A stretch of 62,104 nt of DNA, counting the filler, from Basidioascus undulatus (Eukaryota), in NCBI GenBank assembly GCA_000826855.1. It is 3 parts of 3 records of this genome, joined end to end, with 100 filler letters (N's around TTAATTAATTAA, not from the genome) between each part and the next. Parts side by side here need not be neighbours in the genome. Positions count along the whole stretch, not along the records: positions 1 to 20,655 come from JTLS01000363.1; 2 more parts are not named here. One strand, written 5' to 3'. Each line of letters starts with the position of its first letter. Within the stretch, counting starts at the first letter, position 1. The notes below the pieces were generated by a model. It worked only from the letters and a program-made list of their open reading frames with translations. It was not told the DNA's origin and ran no database searches. Shown one piece after another: positions 3,940-51,300 of the stretch. Position numbers and translations under genes: made by a program.

Positions 3940-5237
3940 ATGGTCACGCCCAACGCCGACAGCTACGCCCTCGCCGAAGAGCAGCAGAATCGCTACTTGT
4001 TCAAGGCTACCGAGAAACCTCACAGCCTGAACCCTTGGCCTTCTACTTTTTATGTCGTGCGTTCCAGCCGTCAGCACTTACAGTCCCCACCCCCCTGTAG
4101 CTAGTCCCGCCGCTGACATTGACGGACAACATGCTTGGCTGTGATCGTCCACAGCATCTGCGCGACAACTTCCGGATCTCGACCTGGCTCCTGCTAGGTG
4201 CCGCCATCCAGACGCTCCTCTACGCCCTCACGCCATACGCGCTCCTCCTCCCGGCACTCCTCCTTGCCGCACGCTCCGTGAACCCCCTCCTCGTCGTTTT
4301 CGGTCTGAAGCGTAACAAGCTCCTGGACGGCACGATCCAGGGCAAGTTCGCGGTCCGGTTCCCCGACAGCGACGAGCGCCCGAACGGAGAGGAGGAAGTC
4401 TGTGTCATCATTCTGGGAGCGAGAAGCAATCAGTGGGATTAGATCGCTTCACCGTTCTCAGAAGGAACATGCACTGATGTCCCATCGATTGGGCAGTCCT
4501 CTCGGATTGTTTGCTCCTGGCTTCAAGGAGATGGGTGACTTGTTTGGGAGGATGTTCGCCGAGATGGATGCAGACCCGGAAAAGCATGGCTGTGAGATTC
4601 CTCCTTCCATTTATCCTTCATACTCTAATCTTACCAGCTTCCTTCATATGAATAGACCTTGGGGCCGCGTCGTTCATCGACGCTGCTGACCGCAAGACTG
4701 CGAACGGAACTGCAACCATGGTTGTCCGTCCGCTTCGATCCTTCCCCTTGCCGGCCGCGAAACATCAACTAACGCAATTCAGGAACAACTCATCTGTGTT
4801 ACAGTACTTCAAGGACGCGGCGTCATTATACAAATTCGCGCACAGTCGTATGCATCGCGACGCATGGGAGTGGTGGAACAAGACCTACCCTACGCACCCG
4901 TACTTGTCCATCATGGTGCGCCGTCTGCAACGTCGTTTACATCAGGACACTGCGCTGACTAATCACCTTCCTTCTCTAGCACGAGCTATACATTTGCGAC
5001 AAGTCCCGCTGGGAGTCGATCCTCATCAACTACCACCCGACGATGCTGTCCGCGACGCGAGCCAAGCTCCCGCGGTCTGCCGAGCACCCGGACGGCGCGT
5101 GGGTTCGCCCGCTCGTCGACGCGAGCCAAGGGGCCATGAAGACGCACAAGGGGCGCCTTGGGCGCACGGATGGCGAGGACAACGACAAGCTCGGGGAAGA
5201 GCCTTACGGACCTGCTGTCGTGGTTGGGCAGACTTGA
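3940..5237 (+). CDS. DUF4188 / af470-like putative monooxygenase, multi-exon
   Basis: Spliced product contains LRDNFRISTWLLLGAAIQ, VCVIILGARSN-PLGLFAPGFKEMG, YFKDAASLYKFAHSRMHRDAWEWWNK, HELY, WESILINYHPT and PLVDAS...KGRLG, matching the fungal DUF4188 pattern as I recall it. Confidence 0.85.
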
Positions 5238-6065
5238 GCGCGACTGCTATCGTTTCGAATAAGCGACTCAAGGGATCCGTTTTGAGCTGGCAGTTCAGAG
5301 TACCTTACAGTGGACTGGTTTTATGGCTAGAACCGTTGACCTTCTTGTTGATGGGAGTCAGGGAGAATACATTGGGTCAAGCTATCATCGACGGTGTGCT
5401 GTGAAGGCTAAGGGCGCCGCATTGCGACACCTATGCCGGAGACTCAGTATTTCGGAGAGGTACTGGGTCACTTAACATTGACTTTAGCTATCAGGACTGA
5501 TTTCGGTCCAAGTTTGATGTACCAGCATGAAAATACAGCCTTGATTTTCTGTGATTCTTGGTCCAAATCTGCTTAATTTGCTGGCTCAGGCGGTGTCGGC
5601 GGCAATCTTTTTGAATCCTCTGTAGCACAGCGCACGGCCGCGCTGTTCCACTGTCGAAATCTCATGGAAAGCTAGACCACAAAATGGCCACGGAGTACAG
5701 TCGGAGTACGCACATGGTCCCGGCTGTTTGGCTGTAAGAAGCATGCGGTCGACAGCCACCGACCGCATGCGTTGCCGCCGGTCCAAGACATCTCCGAGGG
5801 ATTGCCATAAGGTTTGGGAATACGCGACAGCGGTACGGTGCTTTTGACCTTATCAGATTCTAGGTCCATCTTATCGGGCCTGTCAAAAGAGATCGAGAGG
5901 TTCTTATGAGCACTACTCTGCATGAGAACTCTGCACGGCCATCCGCAACATGCTCCATGTGCGCACCCCCCCTTTTCTTCCTTGCCTTTACTTCTGATGA
6001 ACATGGTCATGGGAACAAAAAGGCCATCCATGGTCTATATCGGCCGAGGACGGGCAGTCGCAAAG

Positions 6066-6073
6066 ATATAAAG
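6066..6073 (+). promoter_or_regulatory. Putative TATA box of the small Cys-rich peptide gene
   Basis: ATATAAAG lies about 85 bp upstream of cacaATG at 6151. Confidence 0.5.
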
Positions 6074-6150
6074 ACGCTGGCTTCCAGCTCGAAAGAGAAG
6101 TGCATCCCACCAGTCTCTTTCATTTCTTCTCGAGCATCCAAACCCTCACA

Positions 6151-6424
6151 ATGCGCTTCGCCCTCCTTAACTCTCCTCGTCGCACTCGTCGGGCTCGCTG
6201 CTGCCACCCCGTTTGAGGCGCGTGCCTGCGACGCGAACTGCAACGGTCGCTGCCAAGGCCAATGCGGCGGCAAGGGCCCGTACGGTATCCCTACGCCTCC
6301 TGACCAGCGCTGTAAGCCCTTTCCTCTTCCTACCGTATAGCTTTACCTCGCCGGAGCCTGACGGTAGTACTTGGCGGGGCGATTCACAGGCATGGAGCAG
6401 TGCCACCAGAGGTGTGGGTGCTGA
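6151..6424 (+). CDS. Small secreted cysteine-rich peptide (64-aa precursor, 8 Cys); 2 exons, apparent +1 frameshift in the signal peptide (possible pseudogene)
   Basis: Exon 1 is 6151-6311, intron 6312-6389 (GTAAGC...CTGAC...CAG), exon 2 6390-6424. Removing one base at about 6160-6170 gives MRF(ALL/ASL)TLLVALVGLAAATPFEAR-ACDANCNGRCQGQCGGKGPYGIPTPPDQRCMEQCHQRCGC*. Confidence 0.75.
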
Positions 6425-6585
6425 AAGCCGAGTTCACACTGCCGCTTCTGGCCAAGTGGTTGCCAGCCATCGGCACTGTGATCGGTGCTGGACTAGCGCT
6501 CTACCTTTACCATGCCGTGCCTGAGTTCACAGCCAACCTGACACGGTCTCGACTAGGATACACTGTCTACCGATTCCTGAACGCG
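6416..6585 (+). other. nad5: NUMT: fragment resembling mitochondrial NADH dehydrogenase subunit 5 (C-terminal region)
   Basis: Translates to AEFTLPLLAKWLPAIGTVIGAGLALYLYHAVPEFTANLTRSRLGYTVYRFLNA, resembling the basidiomycete ND5 segment 'EAEF.LPL..K.LPAI.T..GAGLALYLYH..P.F...LT...LG...Y.F.N'. It is intronless with no start or stop of its own. Boundaries are approximate. Confidence 0.8.
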
Positions 6586-7383
6586 TGTATGGAAAGGTGC
6601 GTGTTCGCTCCGAAGCTCACTAGGGGAGTCACTGACGGTAATGAACTGCACACAGTTTCTTGGGCTGTAGAGTTTCCGGCTGAATTGGGATCAAGCTTGT
6701 GATGCGATTGCGCTGCATGAGACCTGCTCTACCGTACTCCCTTTCAGTGTACCGGCTGGGATACCCTCGGTTATCAACAGCTTACCACAGCATATTCCTT
6801 TTGAGAAAACTGTGATTCACCTCAGGCCGGCGCTTCAATCCAGCACTGTTAATCAGGAATTCCCGGTTTTCCTTCCGCCAGGTCACGATCCTAGACTACG
6901 ACCGCTCAGAGACGCGAATGAGTATGACTGACTATGTGATAAGAAAGTTCTGTCACATTTCACTGTTCGGACCTGGGTCGGCAATGCAATGGGACAACAT
7001 AACCTCCTCTTTTGGTCAACTGCCGCTGCCGCGGCAACCGCCAGTTCCGAAGTTCGCTGCGTTCACTCGAGGCGCCCTTCGACCACAAATGTTCCTCAAG
7101 TCATGACTGCGGTGTTTGTGGACAACAGGTACTTTTTCCCTTAGTCACAAAAATTTCACACTCGAATGAAGGAGCTCTGTGCTAAAGCGTACATATGCAA
7201 TGACAGACGTTTCGACAGACGTGCATATCGCAGTTTGGCGCTTTAAAGTAATACAGCAGGCTCGCCTCTGATATCGGCAGGTCCTGTAGTCCGACTTTGG
7301 CGAGGAAGGCCGCCTTGAGGCTGCCGCTCTCATCGCCTCGGTATTGCTCCATTTCCACATTTCGCTGCATCTTTCCCTAAGTT

Positions 7384-9941
7384 ATGGGTGTTAAGGCAAG
7401 TCCAATGTTTCTTGGCGTGCAGCGGTCCTGGCTTACCTGCTGCGCGCAGGGCCTCACAACGTATGCGCGAAGCAATCGCCGCGCGCTCTCCCACTCGATC
7501 TCGCTGCCCTCTGTGCCTCTCGATTCGGACGCCCCACGAACAGCGCTGGTGGTAGATGCGTGGTCGTGCGTACTTTCTTCTTCAAAGCTTGAGTGTTCTG
7601 AAAGCTGAAATCTCGTAACCGTGTGGGCCAGCCTCATCTATTCGCTGTACTTTTCGTCCGGTCTCTCGTGGATCAGCGGGGGCGAGTACGCGGCTTTCGG
7701 GAAGCTGCTCAAGCAGTTGGTAGAGGGCTGGAGGGCTGTGGGGCTGGAACCAGTCTTTGTATTTGACGGTGAGTCTGATATGTGCTCAGAAGGTGGTGGG
7801 TGCTTGTCAGACCGTCGTGCATTGCCTTGCACCCTGCGAGCATGCATTGATTTCCTGTGGCTTAGACTGCTGGGACAGCTCACCTGCAATGTTACTGAAC
7901 AGTGCGCAATCTCCTTCTCTTGAAAGGTCCCGCCTCGCACCTCAAACACCCCACGATCATTTCCCGCTTGACTGCGACGACGACGCATCTCACCCTCCTC
8001 TCGCGCTCCTCGCCCTACATGCGCTCCTCCTCGGCCTTTCTCCGCTCGATCCCCGTCCTCCCGCCTCTCGCATATGACGCCTTTGCATCTGCCGCGCTGG
8101 CATCAGACGCGGAGTGCATTTGGGACGAGGGCGAGGCGGACATGCGTGTCGTGCGGGAGGCGCTGGCGCGAGACGGGTTCTGGACCGGCAACGACTCGGA
8201 CTTCTTCGTCGCAGGCGTCTATCACAAGGAAGGAAAGGGGTACGCCCCTCTGGACGAGATGACGTGGATGGCTGCCCCAGAGCCAGCCAGCGGCGTATCA
8301 GGCCGAGCAGGCGGCGGCGATGGCGACGGCTTCACGGTCGTCTCAGGTCGCTCTTCTCCCTCGACGCGATCTTCCAAGCTCGTCCCGCCTTCTCACATCG
8401 ACTCTCTCACGCTCCAAGTCTTTTCTCCTCACCTCCTCGCACACCAACTCTCTCTCCTGCCCTCGCACCTTCCCCTGTTCGCCGCGCTCGTCGGCAACGA
8501 CTTCACGACCGCGTCGCAGCACTCGCTGCTGTTCCCCGCGGGCATGGCCGGAGGGAAGCGCGTGGAGCGCGTTGCGGAGGTCCTGCGCGAAGCGACGAAT
8601 GGTAAGCGCAGGCGCGGAAGCCCTGTCGGCGAGACCGCTGTGGAGATGGTTGAGCGCGCGGTGCGCGCGCTCATGCTGCGCGATCCGGCCTCGGGACTCG
8701 TCACGAAGACGGTCGACGCCGTGATCAGCTCCTCTCTGGCGTATCTCCCTCCGGTCGATCCCTCGCTCTTCTCCACGCCCTCCCTCTCACATCCACACGC
8801 CGCCGCCGTTTTTGATCTCTATCGCACCGCGTACGGCGCCGGCCGGCTAAGTCCCCGTCTGCTGGAGGCAGTGCGAGAAGGCGTGTTCTTCTCTCGCGTC
8901 ATTGTCGAGGATGTTGACCTTCAGAGCGTCGGTGTCCGCGTTGGCAGGGGACTTCGAGAATGGGTCTGGGCGGTCCTGCAGGAGGGATGCGGCATTGCAC
9001 AGTTGGTGGAGGAGGACGCCGCGGAGGAGCTGGAGGAGCTGGTAGAACGGCTAGACCTGGACGAGGGCAAGGTGAATGTCGAAGATCTCGACGAAGAGCT
9101 CGAGCCGCTTGAACGCCCGGATTCAAGTGAGGCAGAGGGCTCGCCTTCGACTCCGCCACCTCCTCGGCAACCGACCATCACAGAGCACCTCCGCCGCTCC
9201 CTCTCCATCCAGCCCATCCCATTGCCCATTCCCTCTCTCGCCTCCCTCTATCCCTCCCTTTCAACCTCAACAGCGCCGCAGCTGCTCCCCCTTCCCGACC
9301 GCCGAGCGCTCTACCTCGCAGCGCACGCGTCCTCCCACCTCGCCCCGCGCGTCGCCGCCCTCCCCGACGCCTACCTCCCGCTCGTCCTCGCCGCGCGACA
9401 CGCCATCTCCTCCATGCACGACTCGAAGTCCGCCTGGAAGGAGCGCGAGCTGGGCGCGGTCCTCGCGGCTACGGTGGTTTCGCGTCGGGCGGATCCTCCT
9501 CCCGCGGCGCAGCAATCGCCCACCTTTTCCCCCGCGAACGTCCAGATCGCCGCGTCCTTGCTCTCCTCGCTCGAGGCATCGCAGCTCCTATCCGACGCGC
9601 TCCTCCTGTCCGAGCATCTCCCGCCCGCGCACTCGCTCTACAGCGGGTCACAGCTACACGCGTTCCTCGACGTTGACCCGGGCGCGGACGCGGGTGCGGC
9701 GTATGGGCTGGAGGCGGAGGAGCTGCGGGTGTGGGACGGGCTGCGTGAAGCGTCCTTGGAGGGGCTGGAAGCGGCGGTGGTAAGGGACGCTAGCGTGAAA
9801 GACCGTAGGAAGGAGAAGAAAGCCAGGGCGAAGGAGAGGAAGGCGGGCGCAGTCGGGGAGAATGGGAACAGCAGGGGCGGCGGGAAGGTCGGCGGAAACG
9901 CTGGAGCTTTCGCATTGTTGGCGGAACTGGGAGATGAATAA
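7384..9941 (+). CDS. Asteroid/XPG-like PIN-domain protein
   Basis: MGVK|GLTTY start, LVVDAWS|LIY, WISGGEY, LEPVFVFDG, EGEAD, GNDSDFFV, LFAALVGNDF. The first intron has a GC donor (7396); the long last exon ends at TAA 9939-9941. Confidence 0.88.
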
Positions 9942-20655: not shown

Positions 20656-20755
20656 NNNNNNNNNNNNNNNNNNNNNNNNNNNNNNNNNNNNNNNNNNNNT
20701 TAATTAATTAANNNNNNNNNNNNNNNNNNNNNNNNNNNNNNNNNNNNNNNNNNNN
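20656..20755. other. Artificial contig-joining linker
   Basis: N44-TTAATTAATTAA-N44, which places stop codons in all six frames. Confidence 0.97.
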
Positions 20756-23210
20756 GTTCCTGTTTGTTGTTATCGAATTAGGTTTCATCGTTTGTAGGTA
20801 GACAAGCGGAGCCGCCACTCTTCCGGACGCTCTTCTCAATTCTGCCCGGGGGAGATACAGAAAGGTTTGACAGTCAGCCACACTTTTGGACAGCTGACAT
20901 GGAAGTGATCCAGATCAAATGCCTTCACGCCGCTGGTGTTGCGCGCGTTCAAGTCCTCCTCTTCTGAAAATAGTGATACATTGATGCTGAAAGATCGATC
21001 TGAGTGGTATTTGAGGACGTCAGTGCCCATACTGTCCATATAGTAAAGTTCGTCGCGAGAAGATTTCCGATTCAATCGTTCGTTGGGAAAGAGAAGTCCC
21101 CGCCCTCCTGCTCGCGGCTTTAGTATTCTTGAGGGACCCACAACAAGAGCTGCTGAGATACAGCCTCTGAAAGTGTGATACGAAACAGCCTACGAAGTTG
21201 TGGGCGAGCGGAGAGTGCAGCATGCAACACTGATGTACTCATTCATGCGCCAACAGAGTGCCAACAACCGCCCGCACCGACAACCGCACTGCAACAAGCC
21301 ACAAGGACTACACATTACACGAATCCCGACTTCCAAACCCGCCTTGATCCAGAACCATCTATATACGCGCTCTCAGATATGGTTTACTCACAAGTGCAAA
21401 GGCTCAGGTTGGACGCGTTCTCAGCAGGTGGGCGAGCAGAGAGCAGATGTGGTCCGATCAGGTCGGAAGACGCGCGTCCAACGACTACGAAGCGTCGCCG
21501 GGGGTGGATGTAGTCCCGATTCTGGACCGTCGCGAGGTTATGGCTGATAGATCAAGCTAAGGATGTCGAAACTGATAGAAATTGAGAGATGAGGGGAAGA
21601 AGCAAGGAGGGAGGACGCGCGAGGTCTTGGAACGCGCACCGTGTTCACCAGCATGTTTGGACGCCACGCGTCGAAGTCAGCGTCAGCCGCCAAACCTTCC
21701 TGTACCTCCCCCGGGCAGAATCGCAAAGATACTTCCGTACCGCGTCCGGCTTATGTGAGACATTCGTCACCGGGTGTAATATCAACTGAATGAAAGCAAG
21801 GCGTGCGAGCTGTGTGCTTCTAGCAGCCTCCAGCCCACGCAAAGCAAAGTATGAACGAATAATATTCGGTCTCTGCCCCTCGTCATACGGTCAGCAATGG
21901 TCGGGATGTCGCCGGTACTCACGCAGTCGGATGGAGAAAGTACTGCAGCTTGCAGTCGCGGTCTATGACAGTCCTCAAACCCTCTTCCTTTCACGCTGCT
22001 AACATGCTTCGGCTAGCCAAGGACCAACTACAGGGTATTTGAATCAGGTTCTCTTGACCATGGGAAACAGTGAGAACACAAAGTTTTCCTCAACATCAGT
22101 AGGGCGACAGATCAGAACGATGCTTCATAACCGCAACACCCCGGCAGGTCCTCTGCGCAAAGTGCACATTGCTCAGCCCGACCACCAAATATCACGGATT
22201 GAACATTCCATACAAAATTATTGTTTCCATCAGTTTGTACCCCTCGATCGCGTCGTGAAGAGGCAAAACATCTCTGCATTCGGTCAAAGCACACGCCGCT
22301 GTGGACTTCGCAGCACAGGCGCCGTACCGTCTATTATATAAAGATGTTTCACGACCTATAATCCTCGAACGTGACCCGTGGTCCTCTAGGGAGTGCGCCC
22401 TTACTAGCAGAGCAAGCCGGCCAATAAAACCTCTTCACAGCCAGTATCCTTCGAGGTAACTCGTGGTACTCTCGCACGTTCTACATGTGCTACTGCGGTA
22501 TCTCAGCTCAAGCAGCAGTTTCGCATCTCACACTTTGTAGCTTTGAATCATAACTTGCGACTCTTCCTCATGCCTGGCAACCCTAAGCAGACAAATTCAT
22601 GTTGTCAGAAGACTTGCGGAGCAGGAAAACGAAGATGTGGTTCACCTGCGGACAAACACGCCCGTCAAAGACTCTTCCAGGCATCGTTGAACTCCCTGGT
22701 TTAAGAAACTACACGCATCGATACATGTTCGCAAGTGACCAGCGCCTTTGCCGCCTTCCCCTGAGCCTCAGCTCCCCACTCATAACTCCCCCGATCTCCC
22801 CGATCTCCCTACACCCCTCTCACGTCAGTCAGTCCTTTACCTCCCTCGCCCATATGCAGGAACGTACAGGCATATCAGAGGGCACGCTCTGGGAAGTGGA
22901 GACGTAGGAGCGGGGGACGTAGGCGGCGCGCGGCCAAGAGTGCATTTCTTCATGTAATTGCTTTCGCAACTGTCGAGTTTCTAGGTCTGATATGACTTGG
23001 CATACTACGCAACGCGCTCTGTCGGAAACAGTTGTCGTTACCTCCGCTGTATCATAGGCCACAGATGCATCGCAGCGCTCAAGCGCTCGCTTGAGAAACC
23101 TTCTACACTTCGTAGCGCAAGCCAGGCAACACAATATTTTGAACGTTCAACCCGCATTCATGTCAATGTGTCGCTCTCATCGCAATGTCATACTCCCTCA
23201 TAAGCACAGT

Positions 23211-30700: not shown

Positions 30701-33700
30701 CGCCTGCTCGTCCGCAAGCTCTTGCCATCGCGACGCCCACCGCAACGCCGTCCGGGTCGCGCGCGGCGGCACTCGCCATGCCCCCGCCGAGTACGACGCG
30801 CTCTGCGCGCTCGAAGCAGATCGACCTTCCGAAGCCGCGCGGGGCGCCTCGCCGTATGTCCCGCACGCCGTCTGCTTCGCCGGCACCGTTCCAGACACCG
30901 CGGCAGGCCACGCCTTCACCATTTGCGACCCCCGGTCCCTCGACGCTTGCTGGTACGTGTTATAATTCTTTTTTGGTTGACGGACCATCATGCTGATGGT
31001 GATCGCTGCTGCAGGTACGCCACTCAAGCCCGTTGGTGGCATGGCTCGCACTCTCCGGTCGCTTCCCCGGACGGACTTGACCAAGCAGCGCCGCGAGAAC
31101 GAGATCCTCTACATCCTCGACAAACACGGCGGCGTCCTCGAGGGCGGGCCCAACCTCGTCAAGCTCCATGCCGAGTTCAACGACGAGCAGGCCTCGCGCA
31201 CGGCCGCGGAGGGCTCGCAGCAGAAGCACGTCCACGGCACGCGCATCGACAAGAAGACTCTCACGTCTGCGCTGGAGGGCCTCGGCCGCCGCGGGCTCGT
31301 CAAGGAGCTCATCATCCAGGTCCCCGGCATCGGCGGGACGTTCCACCGCCGCAGCGTCGTGTACAAGACGGACCTCGACCCGGCCTCGCCCGAGGTCCGC
31401 GCCGTCGTCGCCGAGCTGCGCCACCGGCTCACACACACCGTGCACCGCCCGCGGGCGAAGAAGATGCTCGCGGACGGCGCGAACTTTGACCGGCCGACCG
31501 AGCAGTGGTACCTAGACGGCGCGCCCCAGGCGACCAAGGTCAACGTCCTTGCGCTGCCCGAGAACCCTCAGGACCCGGCGCAGGCCGACGCCGTGCGCGA
31601 GATTCTCCTCACCGAGTGGCGCACCTGCGCGCAGCAGTATGGCTACATCATCGGAAAAGTTGCGCGCCTCCGCCAGCTGCACCTCAGCTTGGTCGACGAG
31701 CTCCAGCGCCCGCACGCGGAGCGCGCGTCGAGCCTCGTCTCGGCCGAGCAGCGCATTTTCAGCATCGACTACTTCTCCGTCGACCTCCCGCTCGAGGTCC
31801 ACCTCCGGACCGCCGCGCTCACGGTCGACGCACCGCACGTGCTCGAGCAGTTGTCGACCCTCGAGGGCCGCCGCGCTCGCGTGGGTACGCTGCCCAGGCA
31901 GATGCGAGAGGTCGCCCAGATCGCGCACGGGCACCACCGCGCGCGCCTCGAAGAGCTCCTCCGCACGCTCATCAACTTGCGCATCATCGTCCCCCTCCAA
32001 GCCGCGACGTCGCCCACGCCCTACCTCAACCTGGGCCCCGTGGCGTTCGGCAGGCCGACCGCGTACGATACCGCGTACGGCAAAGAGTTCCCGAGCTACT
32101 TTCAACTCGCGCAGAGCGTCCCCCTCTTCGCGTTCAGCGTCGAGGGCGCCCCCTTCATCGGCGCATCGCCTACCACCAACTCGATCGAGGTGACGACCTA
32201 CTGGGCCAAGCTCGAGCAGGGCGCGTTCAAAAAGCAGCTGGAGGACGGGCCAGCTCCTGTCGCGCCCGAAGGCTACCCGCAGGCGTTCGAGGGCCCGGAG
32301 TCGCTGGTCAGGTCGCTCAAGCGCCCGCATACGTGGCGCCCCGGCTACGCGCTCTCGCCGACACAGAAGGTCTTCCTGGAGGAGTTCGTCGACTATCGCC
32401 AGGCGCAGACGCCGCTGCAGGACGAGGCTGCGCTCAAGCGCATCGCTCACGCCAGCGTCGTCCCGATCGACTTCCTTCGCGAGTACTTCGCAAACGCGGG
32501 GGAGCGCGCGCATGTGTACAAGGTGCGCATCGAGGCGAAGGAGGGCAAGGCTGCGCGCAAGCGCGAGCAGGAGGCCAAGGCCCGCGACCGCAAGCTCGCG
32601 GACGAGGCGAAGAATCGGATCGCCGCTAAGGCCGCCGAGGCCAAGGCGCAGCTCGAGAACGACTGGACCGCGATCCTCCGGCGCGTGCTAAGCGAGACGC
32701 CGGAGCTGAGCGCGACGTTGGTCGACGACGAGGCGTTCACGTCCACGAAGGAGAAGTTCATCAGCTCGAGTGGGCACACCGAGATCAGCGCGTTCGAGGC
32801 GCAGATCCGCGCGGCAGCCAAGCGGTCGCGTAGGGCGGCGACGCCAGCGGGAACAGCGACGCCCGGGACCGCTGCGACCCCGGCGCGGGCGGCGAAGACG
32901 ACGATGCCCGTGCGCGCGCGAAAGAAGGCGTCCCAGTATATCCTCAAGCATCCGGTCCAGACGCCGCAGGGCAAGTCGGTCGCGTCTCTGGTGGAGGACC
33001 AGAACGACAGGGGTACGTGTAACTCGATGAGACTCGCTCAGTCCGGAATTCTGATCCATCACTTCGCAGACATTGAGCTACCCGCTGCCGACTCTGCGCG
33101 GAAGCGCCGCCGCCGGTTCCAGTGGACGCCGGATCTCGACGAGCTCGCGCGGGACACGATCGCGATCGTCCGCGCGCGCACGCGCGAGGGTAATCGCATT
33201 AACTTCGGCGCCATCACGCAGGTCTTCCCGCACATCACGGTGACGACGTTCCGTACGCACATCAAGGCGCTTTCGCAGCGCCTCGGCGAAGAGGGCTATC
33301 TCTCTCGCCTCGAGGACGCCTGGTACGAGCTCTGGGTCGACCAGCGCGGGACAGACGAGCTGCCCGATCCGGACCTGAGGGACATGGCGACGTTCGACCT
33401 CGCTGCGCACATTGAGTGCCTCCGGAAGCACATCGATAAGCGTGCTCTGTGCGTGCAGCTCATAGTTCTTCATCATTTGGCGTTGTACCTCAGCGCTGAC
33501 TTCTTAGTCATTACCCCTTATTCTCAGCTGGCTCGGTACCTCCTCGCAGATCACGCCGTCTGAACCCCCGCCCGAGATGCCACTCGACGTCTCGAGTCTG
33601 CTGGCCAAGTACCGTGTCGTCGACTCGGAGGTGACCGACGCGGATCCCTTCGTCAAGCTCTTCGAGAACGTCACCTCCGACGTCAACCGCGAGAAGCTCT

Positions 33701-44949: not shown

Positions 44950-47014
44950 TCAGACCTTCTGCCACGGCGCGGTGCCATGCGGCGCCTGGACTTCGTACTC
45001 GAGCTTGAGAGTCTTCGACGCCCCTCCCTCCAGCTTCAGCAGCCACTCAATCAGACCCTGCTCCTGTCCCGCGCTGTTCTCCCAAGCCTGCGGCGCTTCG
45101 GTTTCGCCCTGTGCCTTGGCCCACCTCACCCACACGTCCTCGCCGAGCGCAGTCTGCTTGTCCTCGATATGCGCCGGCTCGCGCAGCAGGACCTTGAGTT
45201 GCGCGTCCTGGCTGACAGGTAGCTGGTCGCGGACAAGCACGCGCCCGAGCGCGTCGGACGCGCGCGAGTTCGTGAGCGTGATGCGCTGCGAGAAGGTCGT
45301 GCTCGTCGACTTGGACCAGCCCAGCGTGGAGGTCGTCGAAGCGCGCTTTGAGACAGGGTGGTACGTCACCCGAAGGGCGGGGTCTGCGCCCAGCGAGACG
45401 TCGAAGAACTCCTGAGGGGAGACGTCCTATAGAGGGACGGTTGGTAACAGTCAGCTTCCAAGCAGCGTGCAAGAAACTGCGGCTGCAGGAGACGTACGCG
45501 GATGTCGGAGGTCGCGACGAAGGAACCGTCCAGGAACACCTGCGCGACACCACGAAGAAGCGGGAAGGGCGAGTTGTTGACGATCTTGGCCTGCGAGCGC
45601 GATCAAGGAAAACTTTCAGTGGAACACAAAGGAGACCGAAGAAAGTGCGACGCACTTGCAGGAAAGCACGTTCAACCTCCTTCGGCACCACGACCCATTC
45701 CAGCTCGGCGTCCAGCTCCAGCTGCGCGACAGAGACCTGGCATTGCAACATAACCCCGTTTTCAGTGGGCGTTACATGAATGGGTAAGGGAAGCAGACGG
45801 ACCTTGTGCGCATCGCCATCAGAAGGTACGGTGCTGTCGCCCTGCACCTCGAAGGTGACCGAGGTGACCGACTTGCGGACGGCGACGGGAGCGTGCTCGA
45901 TCATGGCGAGCCGGAGGAGGCGGTCCCCGGGAGCAGACGTCTTTGCTTTAAAGGCCGGCGGCTTCGGCTTGGCGAAGTCGATCTTGTAGGGGGAAAGGTT
46001 CGGAATGGCGCTGCCGACTGCCAGCGAAGCTGTACCACGAAGCCGTAAGTCTCTGCCCTTCGTCGTGTTCTCGCCTCTTAATGCAGCTAGTGGTAATACC
46101 AGTTGAGAGCGTAAGAGCGACACCCTTCCAGTCTTCGCCAGTCGATTGCCTGACCTCGGCGCGATAATGCAGGTCGACGGAGTGGCCGTCATCCTTGGAC
46201 GCCTTGGCCCGCAGGTCGTAGAGAGGCTCCCAGGAAGCGCTCGAGACGACTGTCATGTGGGGCGTCAGTTCTGGGTGTGAGCATGACAGGCATCCACAGT
46301 GCTCACTGTACGAGAGCGACAAGGCCACGGGTCCGTCCTCCTTGACAAGCAGCACGACCGTCACAGTCGTCCCGCACCTGTCCTCCCTCCGGTCATCCTG
46401 GAACTTGTTCTTCTTCTCGCGCAGCTCCTCCTCGACCTGAGCGAGCTCCGTCTCCGCCTCGACGATCTCGGCGTCAAGCGCGCCCGCGCGGGTGTTGTAC
46501 GTGTCGAGGAACGCGGCGACCGCGTCGGCGCCGTTGTGCTCGCCCGTGAGCGAGGAGCCGAACGAGTCGAGAACTCCGAGAGACTTCTTCAGACGGCGGA
46601 GCGTGTCAGAAAGGGAGCGCTTTCGACGCTCGAGAGCAACGAGCGTGGGGTCCTTCGGGTCGAACGGAACGTAGGATGGCGCCTTGTACACGACGTCGAA
46701 GATCGTCGCGAATCCGGTGCCCTCAACTCTGTGTATAGTTCAGTCAGCTTCAGGCGATGGGGTTGACGCAGCCGACTTGCCGGATCGAGCGGGAGCCGAG
46801 GACATCAGGCAGCTTGGAGATGACCACCTCGTTTTGGCCGGCCTGCGAGACGCATGGAAGAGTTTGTGAATTCAGAGACAAATATCGGACTTCCGAATCA
46901 GCATAATACCTTGAGCTCGATGTTCGGGAAGTGACGAAGAACCTCCGCGCGGTCGACGAAGGCAGTAACCGCGTTGACAGGATAGTGCTTGGCATCGAGC
47001 TCGATGCGGGTCAT
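44950..47014 (-). CDS. DUF4140/DUF4139 (mucoidy inhibitor A-like) protein
   Basis: VTAFVDRAEV, SIRVEGTG, coiled coil, LSY.VSSASWEPLYDLRA, VRQSTGEDW, TVPSDGDAHKV, FDVSLGADP, VRDQLPVSQD. Confidence 0.87.
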
Positions 47015-48362: not shown

Positions 48363-51300
48363 ATGGCGAGCAATATCAAGGTTGTCTGTCGGTACGTCCA
48401 GAGGACCTCCTGTCCCCATCCGACATCGCCGCTCATCCATCCGCTCGCTTCCCAGGTTCCGGCCCGGTCCGTGCCCTGTTCAGCGCCCCTTCGCCACACC
48501 ACGCACACAGCACTCACATCTTCTGTCCTTCATCCCCTCGTGCAGTCAACAAGATCGAGCTCGTCCAATACCCGCCAGATGGCAAGCCGGTCGTCCAGTT
48601 CGCGGACACGCTCGACCGCGTCATGCTCACCTCAGCTAGCATGCCCACGTCTGGGCCTGAGGCCCAGGGCTTCTCCTTCGATCGTGTCTTCCCTATGGGC
48701 ACGCAGCAGGCGGAGGTGCGTGGGGCTGGGCAGGCGGAGGGGAGCTGGGGCGGAGAGCGGGGGCGCTGACTTGGTCGCCTGGCTAGGTTTTCGAATATGG
48801 CGTGAGGGGAATTGTTGACGGTGAGTGTGTTGCTCGAGCTTGATGAACCATCTGTGGAGAAGAGAGTCAGGGGGCGTTGGTGGCTGCAAAGGAAGGGCGG
48901 GGAGATGAAGAGATTGGCATGGCGAATGGAACCGCAGGCTCATCTGTTCCCTCTCACTCTTCCTAGATGTCATCGCTGGCTACAACGGAACTGTCTTCGG
49001 TGCGCAATAATCCTGCGTTCTTCCCCCCATCTTCATAGCCACTCACACGCATCCACGCCAGCCTACGGCCAAACTGGCTCGGGCAAGACGTTCACCATGA
49101 TGGTGCGCTCCAGCCCGCTCGTGTGACATCCCGAACAAACGTGAACTGAACTGTTGTTGATAAACGGAATGTGCAGGGATCGGACATCGACGACCCCGAA
49201 TTGAAGGGTATCATCCCGCGCATCACCGAGCAGATCTTCGAGGCGATCATGACGTCCCCACCGAACATCGAGTACCTCGTCAAGGTCTCCTACATGGAGA
49301 TTTACATGGAGCGGATCCGCGACCTCCTTGCCCGTGCGTCCACCCGAGCGCGGCATGCAGCGTTGGGCGTTGGGCGATGGCAGCGGTGCTGAAATGGGGG
49401 GACCGGCACACAGCTCAAAAGGACAACCTGCAAGTGCATGAGGACAAGGTCAAGGGCGTGTACGTCAAGGGCTTGACGGACTATTACGTCTCCAACACGC
49501 GCGAGGTGTATGAGATCATGCGCCAAGGTGGACAGGCGCGGGTCGTCTCCTCAACAAGTGCGTTTCTGTCTTTTCACCTGGCAGTGGCATCTGCGAAGGC
49601 CGCGGAGCTCGGAACTGAGCATTCTTTGACTTTGCTGTCTAGACATGAACGCCGAGTCGTCCCGATCCCACTCTATCTTCCTGATCTCTATCGAGCAGAA
49701 GAACACCGATACAGGCATGTCGCGTGGCGAACGTATCCCTATGCGTAGCTGAGCATGGCGCGGGGCGTAAGCAGGGTCGGTCAAGACGGGCAACTTGTTC
49801 CTTGTCGACTTGGCGGGTTCGGAGAAGGTACGTTGGAAGGCGGTCTCCGCGGGGCGCAGCGTCGGAGGGCGTGTTGCTGAGCGGGTGCCGTGGTATTGCG
49901 CAGATCGGCAAGACGGGGGCGACCGGCCAGACGTTGGAGGAGGCGAAGAAGATCAACAAGAGCTTATCGGCGTTGGGCATGGTCATCAATGCGCTGACGG
50001 ACGGGAAAGTGAGTCGATCTTTCAAGCTGCAGTCGTGACTTGAGCTGGCTATGATGCTGACATGCGGATGCACAGTCCTCGCACATCCCCTACCGCGACT
50101 CCAAACTCACGCGTATCCTGCAAGAATCCCTTGGTGGTAACTCCCGAACCACGCTCATCATCAAGTGCGTCTTAAGCTTGCGGCGGTATGGTCAGTTGAT
50201 GCTGATCATCACTCTGTGCTGCAGCTGCTCACCATCCGACTACAATGAGGCGGAGACGCTCTCGACCCTGCGCTTCGGTATGCGGTATGTCCCGTTTTGA
50301 GCTTGATCCGCGTGGCGGGATTGGAAACTGAAGCTTGCCTGTCCACAGCGCCAAGTCGATCAAGAACAAGGCGCGCGTCAACGCTGAACTGTCCCCCGCC
50401 GAACTCAAGGCGCTACTCAAGAAAGCGCAGCGCGACAAGCTCGCTTACGAGCAATACATCTCCGCGATGGAGGCGGAGCTCGCGCTGTGGCGGGCAGGCA
50501 AAACGGTGCCGAAGGAGGAGTGGGCGACGTCGGACAACGCCGCCGTCCTCGCCGCCGCCGGTGCCGCCGCGTCCAAGCGCTCGAGCGGCACGACGACGCC
50601 CGGCCGGCCAGCGTCCGCCTTGTCCAACCCTGCTCTCGAGGGCCTCCGCGAGGCGGAGAGCAGGCCGATGACGCCCACGCCTACCGGCCTCGACAAGGAC
50701 GAGCGCGACGACTTCCTCAAGCGCGAGGGGGAGCTCAACGACCAGCTCGCGGAGAAAGCGAGTCCTGAGTGCTAGTGTGCTGGAGGTTGCGTGCTGTGTA
50801 GACTAACCGGGTGACTGTGCGGTTCTGGGTCGCAGGAGCACGCCCTGGCGGAGCTGGAGAAGATCGTCAACGAGATCAAGACGGAGCTCGAGTACTACAA
50901 GAAGTCCGCGGACGGCTTGAGCAAGGCAAGTACATCTTGCGGAACCCAAGAAGCTTGTCGTTGGGGCGTGCAACCCGTGACTGACCACCGCTTAATTCGC
51001 CGTTGCAGGAGAACGCCTCGTTCCGGACGGAGCTGTCCGACCTCCGCTTGAACCACGAGCGCCTCCAGTACGAGCAGAAGGACACGCTCATCAACCTGGA
51101 CGTCCTACGCGACAAGAACGTCGAGTTGACGGCTGGGATCGAGGAGCTTGGCGTGCGTCCTACCTGCTTTCAAGGCGGGGCGAAGGATTACGGGCTGCCG
51201 ATGCTGATTCCTGCTGGACTGGGGTTTGCAGAAAGCGCTCGAGGAGGCCAAGGCTGCCCAGCGGGACAGCGCGGCGGAGGACCTGGAGAAGAAGAAGGCG

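What the first reader, a model, noticed from the sequence alone, without database searches (positions are those of the whole stretch)
6066..6424. Cryptic secreted peptide with a CX3C disulfide ladder (helical-hairpin-like), missed by the ORF track
Seen: TATA box, cacaATG, hydrophobic signal, a short pro-segment ending in EAR, and a 40-aa mature peptide ACDANCNGRCQGQCGGKGPYGIPTPPDQRCMEQCHQRCGC assembled across a canonical intron. Spacing is C-x3-C-x3-C-x3-C-x15-C-x3-C-x3-C-x-C. Known: paired CX3C motifs around a loop define alpha-hairpinins, plant antimicrobial and protease-inhibitor peptides. Inference: an antiparallel two-helix peptide with 4 disulfides and a Gly/Pro loop, possibly an undescribed fungal antimicrobial/effector family; I do not recognise it as a defensin, AFP/PAF, hydrophobin or KP toxin. 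One extra base in the signal sequence means this allele may be inactive.
Basis: partly seen in the sequence, partly recalled or inferred. Interest (0 to 1): 0.72.

Follow-up and report, generated by a model that had tools for sequence, protein, structure and literature searches.

The report
Broken fungal gene for secreted mini-protein
This is a real, spliced fungal gene for a tiny secreted eight-cysteine peptide with no relatives found outside this genome, possibly switched on by iron shortage, but both copies in this strain are broken and what the peptide does is untested.

Summary
The gene is real. TATA box, ATG, signal region, EAR pro-segment and the Cys spacing 3-3-3-15-3-3-1 are as described. 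A spliced contig joins 6311 to 6390 exactly. A dispersed paralog on another contig keeps all 8 Cys, the same phase-1 intron and promoter blocks; dN/dS is 0.37. The extra base at 6169-6170 is in two DNA runs, so this allele is frameshifted. The paralog has lost its ATG and stop and carries deletions. A 155-bp piece of mitochondrial nad5 sits two bases behind the stop. New clue: both promoters keep an exact ATCWGATAA box, the SreA/Urbs1 iron-repression motif, which also lies at this genome's FTR1/oxidase and SidA/NRPS loci. The box is not enriched genome-wide, so iron control is only moderately likely. No outside homolog was found, but only exon 1 was searched. The peptide fits the published alpha-hairpinin 6C motif, is nearly neutral, and its fold is unproven. 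Best reading: a secreted, disulfide-stapled hairpin that binds a target through its conserved Gly/Pro loop, used against competitors under iron starvation, now dead in this strain.

The parts
5704..6076 (+). Promoter shared with the paralog; nine exact blocks of 8-15 nt from 5704 to the TATA box
5850..5858 (-). ATCWGATAA box (SreA/Urbs1-type GATA site), 301 nt before the ATG, kept exactly in the paralog
   Evidence: motif from PMC2610380
5870..5875 (-). Second GATA site (GATAAG), also kept in the paralog; the pair occurs at 2 places in the genome, the two copies
6067..6073 (+). TATA box, kept in the paralog
6151..6205 (+). Start codon and signal-peptide region (cleavage site inferred)
6169..6170 (+). 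Frameshift: one base more than the paralog; the ATG frame stops at 6214-6216
   Evidence: DNA contigs of X1 and X2 agree with the window without gaps
6206..6223 (+). Six-residue pro-segment ending in EAR; absent from the paralog (18-nt gap)
6224..6311 (+). Mature peptide, exon 1 part: four Cys spaced by three, then a 15-residue Gly/Pro loop
6312..6389 (+). 78-nt GT..AG intron, phase 1 within the fifth Cys codon; same position in the paralog (74 nt)
   Evidence: joint 6311-6390 in X3
6390..6424 (+). Exon 2 coding part: C-x3-C-x3-C-x-C and stop
6427..6581 (+). Nuclear copy of part of mitochondrial nad5, inserted 2 nt behind the stop and transcribed as 3' UTR
   Evidence: 149 of 155 identical to G000:C2989; nad5 by Pfam; 5' junction bridged by nuclear contigs

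Best explanation
A two-exon fungal gene for a small secreted pre-pro-peptide, now a young, still transcribed pseudogene in this strain. Shown: transcription and splicing, past purifying selection, the frameshift, and a second decayed copy. Inferred mechanism of the working ancestor: iron shortage lifts repression by a SreA/Urbs1-type GATA factor; the signal peptide routes the product through the ER; the EAR pro-segment is clipped; eight Cys form four nested disulfides (C4-C5, C3-C6, C2-C7, C1-C8) that staple two short segments into a hairpin and hold out the 15-residue G-P-aromatic-G-x-P-T loop. Being nearly neutral, it most likely acts by binding a specific target with that loop (a receptor or enzyme of competing microbes), as an antagonist released together with siderophores, and not by lysing membranes.
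For: Splice joint exactly at 6311-6390 in X3. Paralog at E 7.6e-7 keeps 8 of 8 Cys and the intron phase; 31 of 51 aligned residues identical, dN 0.23, dS 0.64, Fisher p 0.009. 9 of 15 loop residues are identical in both copies (G34-D45 region). The spacing fits the alpha-hairpinin 6C motif with two extra Cys. The C5-C7 segment has no Gly or Pro. The iron box is exact in both promoters, while only 21 of 371 promoter 9-mers are kept exactly; a second exact box lies about 240 nt behind the paralog. The same box occurs twice between FTR1 and a multicopper oxidase and twice between SidA and an NRPS: 4 sites in 10.9 kb against 0.04 expected. The upstream gene is on the same strand, so the box is not shared with a divergent gene. 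A precedent for an iron-repressed secreted fungal toxin is Aspf1, though largely SreA-independent (PMC2610380).
Against: No activity, fold or disulfide was tested; the exon-1 model is uninformative and the first ladder has two Gly. The box is not enriched genome-wide: 197 found, 126 expected by an order-2 Markov model, while the reversed control is 92 against 37. Of 60 sampled box sites, 22 had a Pfam-annotated neighbour and only 1 of these (NifU_N) is plainly iron-related. 0 of 2 ferric-reductase-family loci carry it. The other box in the window lies in a long open reading frame. No two-finger GATA factor with a Cys-rich linker was shown among 10 finger matches. Antagonism is chosen by analogy only; two broken copies show the gene is dispensable here.
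Confidence: 0.42

Rival explanations
1. The peptide serves the fungus's own metal uptake: a small extracellular iron, copper or heme binder or shuttle, working like a minimal CFEM hemophore in the iron regulon.
For: Iron box shared with the FTR1 and SidA loci; near-neutral charge; Asp27, Met31 and an aromatic residue are kept in both copies.
Against: No CFEM or other Pfam hit; 40 residues with all Cys probably in disulfides leave few ligands; the only His is not kept in the paralog; neither copy lies in an iron-uptake cluster.
Confidence: 0.2
2. A host-directed small secreted protein (effector or signal) of a plant- or fungus-associated species; the iron box would mark host-induced expression.
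For: Small, Cys-rich, secreted, lineage-restricted, dispersed duplicate with rapid gene death: the usual profile of such genes (general knowledge).
Against: The organism's lifestyle was not determined (searches gave nothing); only 2 copies, no expanded family; dN/dS below 1.
Confidence: 0.15
3. A surface, adhesion or signalling peptide unrelated to iron; the GATA box is a chance site or is read by another GATA factor such as the nitrogen regulator.
For: The box is at chance level genome-wide; several other promoter blocks are equally conserved; an AreA-like finger is among the GATA factors (label recalled).
Against: The exact 9-mer in a 450-nt promoter has a chance of about 0.002, is kept in both copies and recurs behind the paralog.
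Confidence: 0.15
4. The window copy is not dead: an intact allele exists in a second nucleus or haplotype hidden by contig assembly, or the peptide is still made by ribosomal slippage or from an upstream ATG.
For: The transcript is present and correctly spliced; apart from one base the gene and promoter are intact; contigs drop variants, and the spliced contig starts only near 6199, so it does not cover the break (computed from the depth table). In-frame ATGs exist at 5906 and 5957.
Against: Both DNA runs match the window over 4000-6477 with 0 differences and 0 gaps. The upstream ATGs lie before the TATA box and their frame is broken by gaps in the paralog. The 3' UTR was replaced by mitochondrial DNA, in keeping with relaxed selection.
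Confidence: 0.1
5. A chance pattern or an assembly artefact.
For: Cys patterns of this kind arise by chance.
Against: Exact splice joint, conserved paralog, dN/dS 0.37, two DNA runs agreeing.
Confidence: 0.02

Closest known systems
Plant alpha-hairpinins (4C and 6C motifs; EcAMP1, nigellin-1.1, VhTI, BWI-2c)
   Same: Secreted short peptide with CX3C ladders on both sides of a loop; C2-C7 fit the 6C motif with n = 15; extra Cys are allowed by the published criteria (PMC11591084).
   Different: Fungal gene, no sequence similarity found, eight Cys in a 4+4 arrangement ending in C-x-C, single-module precursor, nearly neutral, Gly in the first ladder. A likeness of motif; convergence is the likelier cause.
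Fungal CS-alpha-beta defensins (plectasin type; features recalled)
   Same: Pre-pro-peptide of about 60 aa, mature 40 aa, a G-P loop before a CX3C helix, terminal C-x-C.
   Different: Only three residues between C6 and C7, so no room for the beta-hairpin; four N-terminal Cys in a ladder; no Pfam or PDB hit.
CFEM hemophore domain (features recalled)
   Same: Eight Cys, extracellular, often iron-regulated, a conserved Asp before a Cys.
   Different: Different Cys order, much shorter, no Pfam CFEM hit.
Small Tim proteins with twin CX3C (features recalled)
   Same: Inner spacing CX3C-x15-CX3C.
   Different: Signal peptide, 40 aa, four more Cys, no Pfam hit; a different compartment.
SreA/Urbs1 iron regulon
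   Same: Exact ATCWGATAA box plus a second GATA site in the proximal promoter, as at this genome's FTR1/oxidase and SidA/NRPS loci.
   Different: The controlled gene would be a secreted peptide, not an uptake or siderophore gene; regulation is inferred from the motif only.
Yeast mycocins such as HM-1
   Same: Chromosomal pre-pro-peptide, processed and secreted (PMC12715866).
   Different: No similarity found; much smaller than HM-1 (88 aa); the review calls mycocin expression seemingly constitutive.

Membership tests
alpha-hairpinin | 4C motif C-X3-C-X4-20-C-X3-C or 6C motif | tested here: met
   Spacing 3,3,3,15,3,3,1 contains both motifs as defined in PMC11591084
alpha-hairpinin | At most two Cys outside the core, no double Cys, no X1-C-X3-C tail after the motif | tested here: met
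   Two extra Cys outside the 6C core; after the motif comes X-C-stop; no CC in the window copy (the paralog's CC comes from a 9-nt gap)
alpha-hairpinin | Helix-loop-helix fold | tested here: inconclusive
   Only exon 1 was folded: pLDDT 51.5, no helix in the Cys region; propensity good for C5-C7, poorer for C1-C4 (scale recalled)
alpha-hairpinin | Nested disulfide pairing | not testable with these tools
   Needs mass spectrometry or NMR
alpha-hairpinin | Plant peptide family; homology to members | tested here: not met
   Fungal gene; 0 hits in Pfam, NCBIfam, PDB and the large protein sets with exon 1
alpha-hairpinin | Positive charge typical of antimicrobial peptides (PMC7191063) | tested here: not met
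   4 K/R against 3 D/E, pI 7.7; paralog 3 against 3
alpha-hairpinin | Antimicrobial, trypsin-inhibiting or ribosome-inactivating activity | not testable with these tools
   Needs assays; the single loop Lys is Thr in the paralog
CS-alpha-beta defensin | CX3C helix tied to a C-x-C strand of a beta-hairpin (recalled) | tested here: not met
   Only 3 residues between C6 and C7; no Pfam hit
CFEM domain | Pfam CFEM profile and its 8-Cys order | tested here: not met
   0 families for exon 1 of either copy; exon 2 not included
SreA/Urbs1 iron regulon | ATCWGATAA in the upstream region | tested here: met
   5850-5858, kept in the paralog
SreA/Urbs1 iron regulon | The box marks iron genes in this genome | tested here: inconclusive
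   2 of 4 iron-type loci carry it twice each; no genome-wide excess; 1 of 22 annotated sampled sites is plainly iron-related
SreA/Urbs1 iron regulon | A SreA-type GATA factor in the genome | tested here: inconclusive
   10 GATA finger matches; no Cys-rich linker found by pattern
SreA/Urbs1 iron regulon | Repression by iron | not testable with these tools
   No expression series available

The most novel reading that the evidence does not exclude
An undescribed family of fungal eight-cysteine helical-hairpin peptides, convergent on plant alpha-hairpinins, that is wired into the SreA/Urbs1 iron regulon and released with siderophores as a target-binding weapon in the fight for iron (a fungal counterpart of iron-controlled bacterial microcins), with intact members in related species.
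Probability: 0.22. Interest if true: 0.72.

Novelty: new variant of a known kind. Interest (0 to 1): 0.42.

Why it matters
It is a gene that annotation misses (short, spliced, frameshifted) and it defines a small secreted peptide scaffold with no relative found outside this genome. If the iron link holds, it adds a peptide arm to the fungal iron-starvation response, which is known mainly for siderophores and transporters, and it would be a fungal case of the alpha-hairpinin motif, which the papers seen describe only from plants. The value is limited because both copies here are broken, no intact member is in hand and no activity is shown. The locus is also a neat record of gene death: frameshift, deletions between short repeats in the paralog, and a mitochondrial insertion that became the 3' UTR.

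Tried and rejected
Homolog searches, all with exon 1 only (47 aa) or the two-copy exon-1 alignment: no candidate in the 5.8-billion set at lengths 20-83; 6 hits among 1.84 billion representatives, of which 5 were read and all 5 are long repetitive proteins matched through summed weak stretches (P0007 not read); 0 in PDB; 0 in Pfam and NCBIfam; Atlas gave one lead at 0.76 and then no usable hit, which shows neither absence nor novelty. These collections are poor in fungal genes. Third copy in the genome: 41 exon-2 pattern hits screened, only the two known copies have a matching exon 1; 1 of 3 loop-pattern hits is chance. Hybrid or whole-genome duplication: rejected, no synteny and both flanking genes single-copy. 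Alternative acceptor at 6369 giving a long frame: not seen, and that frame is the nad5 insert. The 21-aa frameshift product as a functional peptide: not conserved in the paralog. Reversed-pattern control for the iron box: misleading, dropped after the Markov estimate. Other small Cys-rich secreted genes behind the box: none in 60 sampled sites. Structure: exon-1 model too poor for a fold search. Lineage: nad5 not in the collection, one unnamed hit for the neighbour gene, no lycopene cyclase match, paper listing unhelpful. No RNA holder is listed on record; X3 is taken as RNA because 8 of its 9 joints are GT..AG. No Rfam match in the window. X1 and X2 show no cover over most of 6672-9000, so the 3' junction of the insert is not bridged; a filter can cause such holes.

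Full report
Observation. The mature part has 40 residues, Cys spacing 3,3,3,15,3,3,1, four K/R against three D/E, pI 7.7. Read from the ATG as the DNA stands, the frame stops after 21 codons. The Cys patterns alone are weak: the four-Cys ladder is seen once in the window with 6 of 100 shuffles reaching that, and the exon-2 pattern has 41 matches in the genome against 50 for its control.

The gene is real. Three public runs hold the stretch. X3 is labelled DNA with a question mark, but 8 of its 9 joints skip GT..AG segments, so I take it as spliced RNA; none of these joints is in X1 or X2. One joint is 6311 to 6390, exactly as predicted. A single paralog lies on contig C457 (E 7.6e-7). It keeps 8 of 8 Cys and has a 74-nt intron at the same phase-1 position. 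Over 51 ungapped codons (left out: the start, the codon at the break, the pro-segment with its next residue, the three codons missing in the paralog and the split Cys codon) 31 residues are identical, dN is 0.23 and dS 0.64, ratio 0.37, Fisher p 0.009; the introns are barely more alike than shuffles (44 identities against a mean of 38, maximum 47). The duplicate is dispersed: only promoter and gene match, and the flanking genes are single-copy. No third copy was found.

Both copies are broken. The window copy has one base more than the paralog at 6169-6170. DNA contigs of X1 (2014) and X2 (2025) run over 4000-6477 with 0 differences and 0 gaps. Either may be the source of the assembly, and contigs drop variants, but an assembly slip is unlikely. 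The spliced contig starts near 6199 by my reading of the depth table, so it says nothing on the break. The paralog lacks two bases at the start codon, has no ATG between TATA box and coding region, lacks 18 nt (pro-segment) and 9 nt (between C2 and C3), and reads CGA where the window has its stop, running on for 14 codons with a ninth Cys. Which state of the stop is ancestral cannot be settled with two sequences; an even number of Cys favours the stop. Two bases behind the window's stop begins a 155-nt piece of mitochondrial nad5 (149 of 155 identical to high-depth contig C2989). Nuclear contigs bridge its 5' junction by 51 nt and the spliced contig appears to run into it, so it now serves as 3' UTR.

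Promoter. Nine exact blocks of 8-15 nt are shared from 5704 to the TATA box. One holds TTATCAGAT at 5850-5858, the reverse of ATCWGATAA, which PMC2610380 (passages seen) reports as over-represented before SreA-controlled genes and as matching the Urbs1 site of U. maydis sid1. A second GATA site follows 20 nt on; this pair occurs at 2 places in the genome, the two copies. In this genome the exact box lies twice between FTR1 and a multicopper oxidase and twice between SidA and an NRPS: 4 sites in 10.9 kb against 0.04 expected. A further box lies about 240 nt behind the paralog. Against this: the box is not enriched genome-wide (197 found; 126 expected by an order-2 model; the reversed control is 92 against 37); of the first 60 sampled sites out of 197, scanned with 126 chosen frames, 22 had an annotated neighbour and 1 of these is plainly iron-related; 0 of 2 ferric-reductase-family loci have it; the window's other box is in a long open frame; and a SreA-type factor was not shown among 10 GATA finger matches. 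Only 21 of 371 promoter 9-mers are kept exactly in the paralog, so the kept box counts for something. I put iron control at about 0.6; this is a judgement, not a computed value.

Relatives and literature. With exon 1 as query there is no hit in the 5.8-billion set, Pfam, NCBIfam or PDB. The 6 hits among 1.84 billion representatives are long proteins; the 5 read are repeat artefacts. Metagenome scans gave nothing credible, and the Atlas gave no usable lead. The whole spliced peptide was neither searched nor folded, and these collections hold few fungal genes, so absence is weakly shown. Seven paper searches (listings only) showed no fungal peptide of this spacing; the library lacks most subscription papers, and supplements were not read (the motif tables of PMC11591084 could bear on membership). 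From PMC11591084 I saw passages and section 4.1: the 6C motif C-X3-C-X3-C-X4-20-C-X3-C-X3-C with up to two extra Cys fits C2-C7 here, and the stated exclusions are not triggered. From PMC7191063 I saw part 1 of 8: a plant family with helix-loop-helix fold. From PMC12715866 I saw passages. An earlier AI note (e1-916224, untested) describes an unrelated bacterial eight-Cys hairpin family, a reminder that this motif recurs by convergence.

How it most likely works. Shown: transcription, splicing, past selection, present decay. Inferred: secretion, cleavage after EAR (a typical fungal pro-segment end; recalled), four nested disulfides, and a hairpin whose second arm is helical (no Gly or Pro) while the first arm, with two Gly, may be distorted. 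The exon-1 model is uninformative (pLDDT 51.5). Net charge near zero in both copies argues against membrane lysis, and the loop Lys is Thr in the paralog, which argues against trypsin inhibition. The best-kept non-Cys part is the loop G-x-G-P-[YF]-G-[IV]-P-T-x-P-D, as expected of a rigid binding loop. With the iron box, the likeliest role is a target-binding antagonist of competing microbes released under iron shortage (0.42 for the whole account). Rivals: a metal or heme binder for the fungus's own uptake (0.2), a host-directed effector or signal (0.15), an iron-independent surface or signal peptide (0.15), a still-working allele (0.1). The organism is an intron-rich, GC-rich fungus with a siderophore cluster and a 55% GC nad5; a basidiomycete is my impression from intron style and comes from no call (searches did not place it).

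Verdict. Works like an alpha-hairpinin by motif, probably; member of that family, no (fungal, no homology, not cationic, fold unproven). It is an undescribed variant of the known kind of small secreted Cys-rich fungal peptides, with a testable link to iron starvation, present here only as two broken copies. Interest 0.42.

Noticed in passing
window 6427-6581: Mitochondrial nad5 insert: 5 of its 6 differences from the present mitochondrial gene are synonymous third-position changes, so it seems to come from an older or different mitochondrial haplotype and not from random decay.
   Followed up: partly
L004 4-1980 (G000:C2989): Mitochondrial nad5 has 55% GC and uses TGG for all ten Trp codons, which seems unusually GC-rich for a fungal mitochondrion (comparison recalled).
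   Followed up: no
window 3941-5237: Upstream gene on the + strand with a Monooxy_af470-like domain; five introns confirmed by spliced contigs.
   Followed up: partly
window 7251-9941: Downstream spliced gene with a 680-codon open frame, one GC..AG-type intron at 7394-7447, no Pfam hit and one unnamed relative at 30% identity.
   Followed up: partly
window 6582-7250: Single-copy stretch of unknown origin behind the insert, unrelated to the paralog's 3' flank and not covered by any laid contig over most of its length.
   Followed up: partly
window 20656-20756: N linker with TTAATTAATTAA: the window joins separate contigs; only 1-20655 is contig C2285.
   Followed up: no
G000:C2740 8800-13500 and C1778 12300-18000 (L064, L065): Divergent FTR1 / multicopper oxidase pair and divergent SidA / NRPS pair, each with two exact ATCWGATAA boxes between the genes.
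   Followed up: yes
L002 about 1963-1971 (G000:C457:11822): Second exact iron-type box about 240 nt behind the paralog, between it and the end of a convergent diphthamide-synthesis gene.
   Followed up: partly
L189 and L230 (G000:C15:1693, C512:17443): Two palindromic double boxes (overlapping on both strands); neighbours not identified beyond a weak ThrE match.
   Followed up: no
window 30981-33563, 45047-46739, 49164-49748: Pfam matches elsewhere in the window: TFIIIC subunit-like (DUF6581), DUF4139/DUF4140, kinesin.
   Followed up: no
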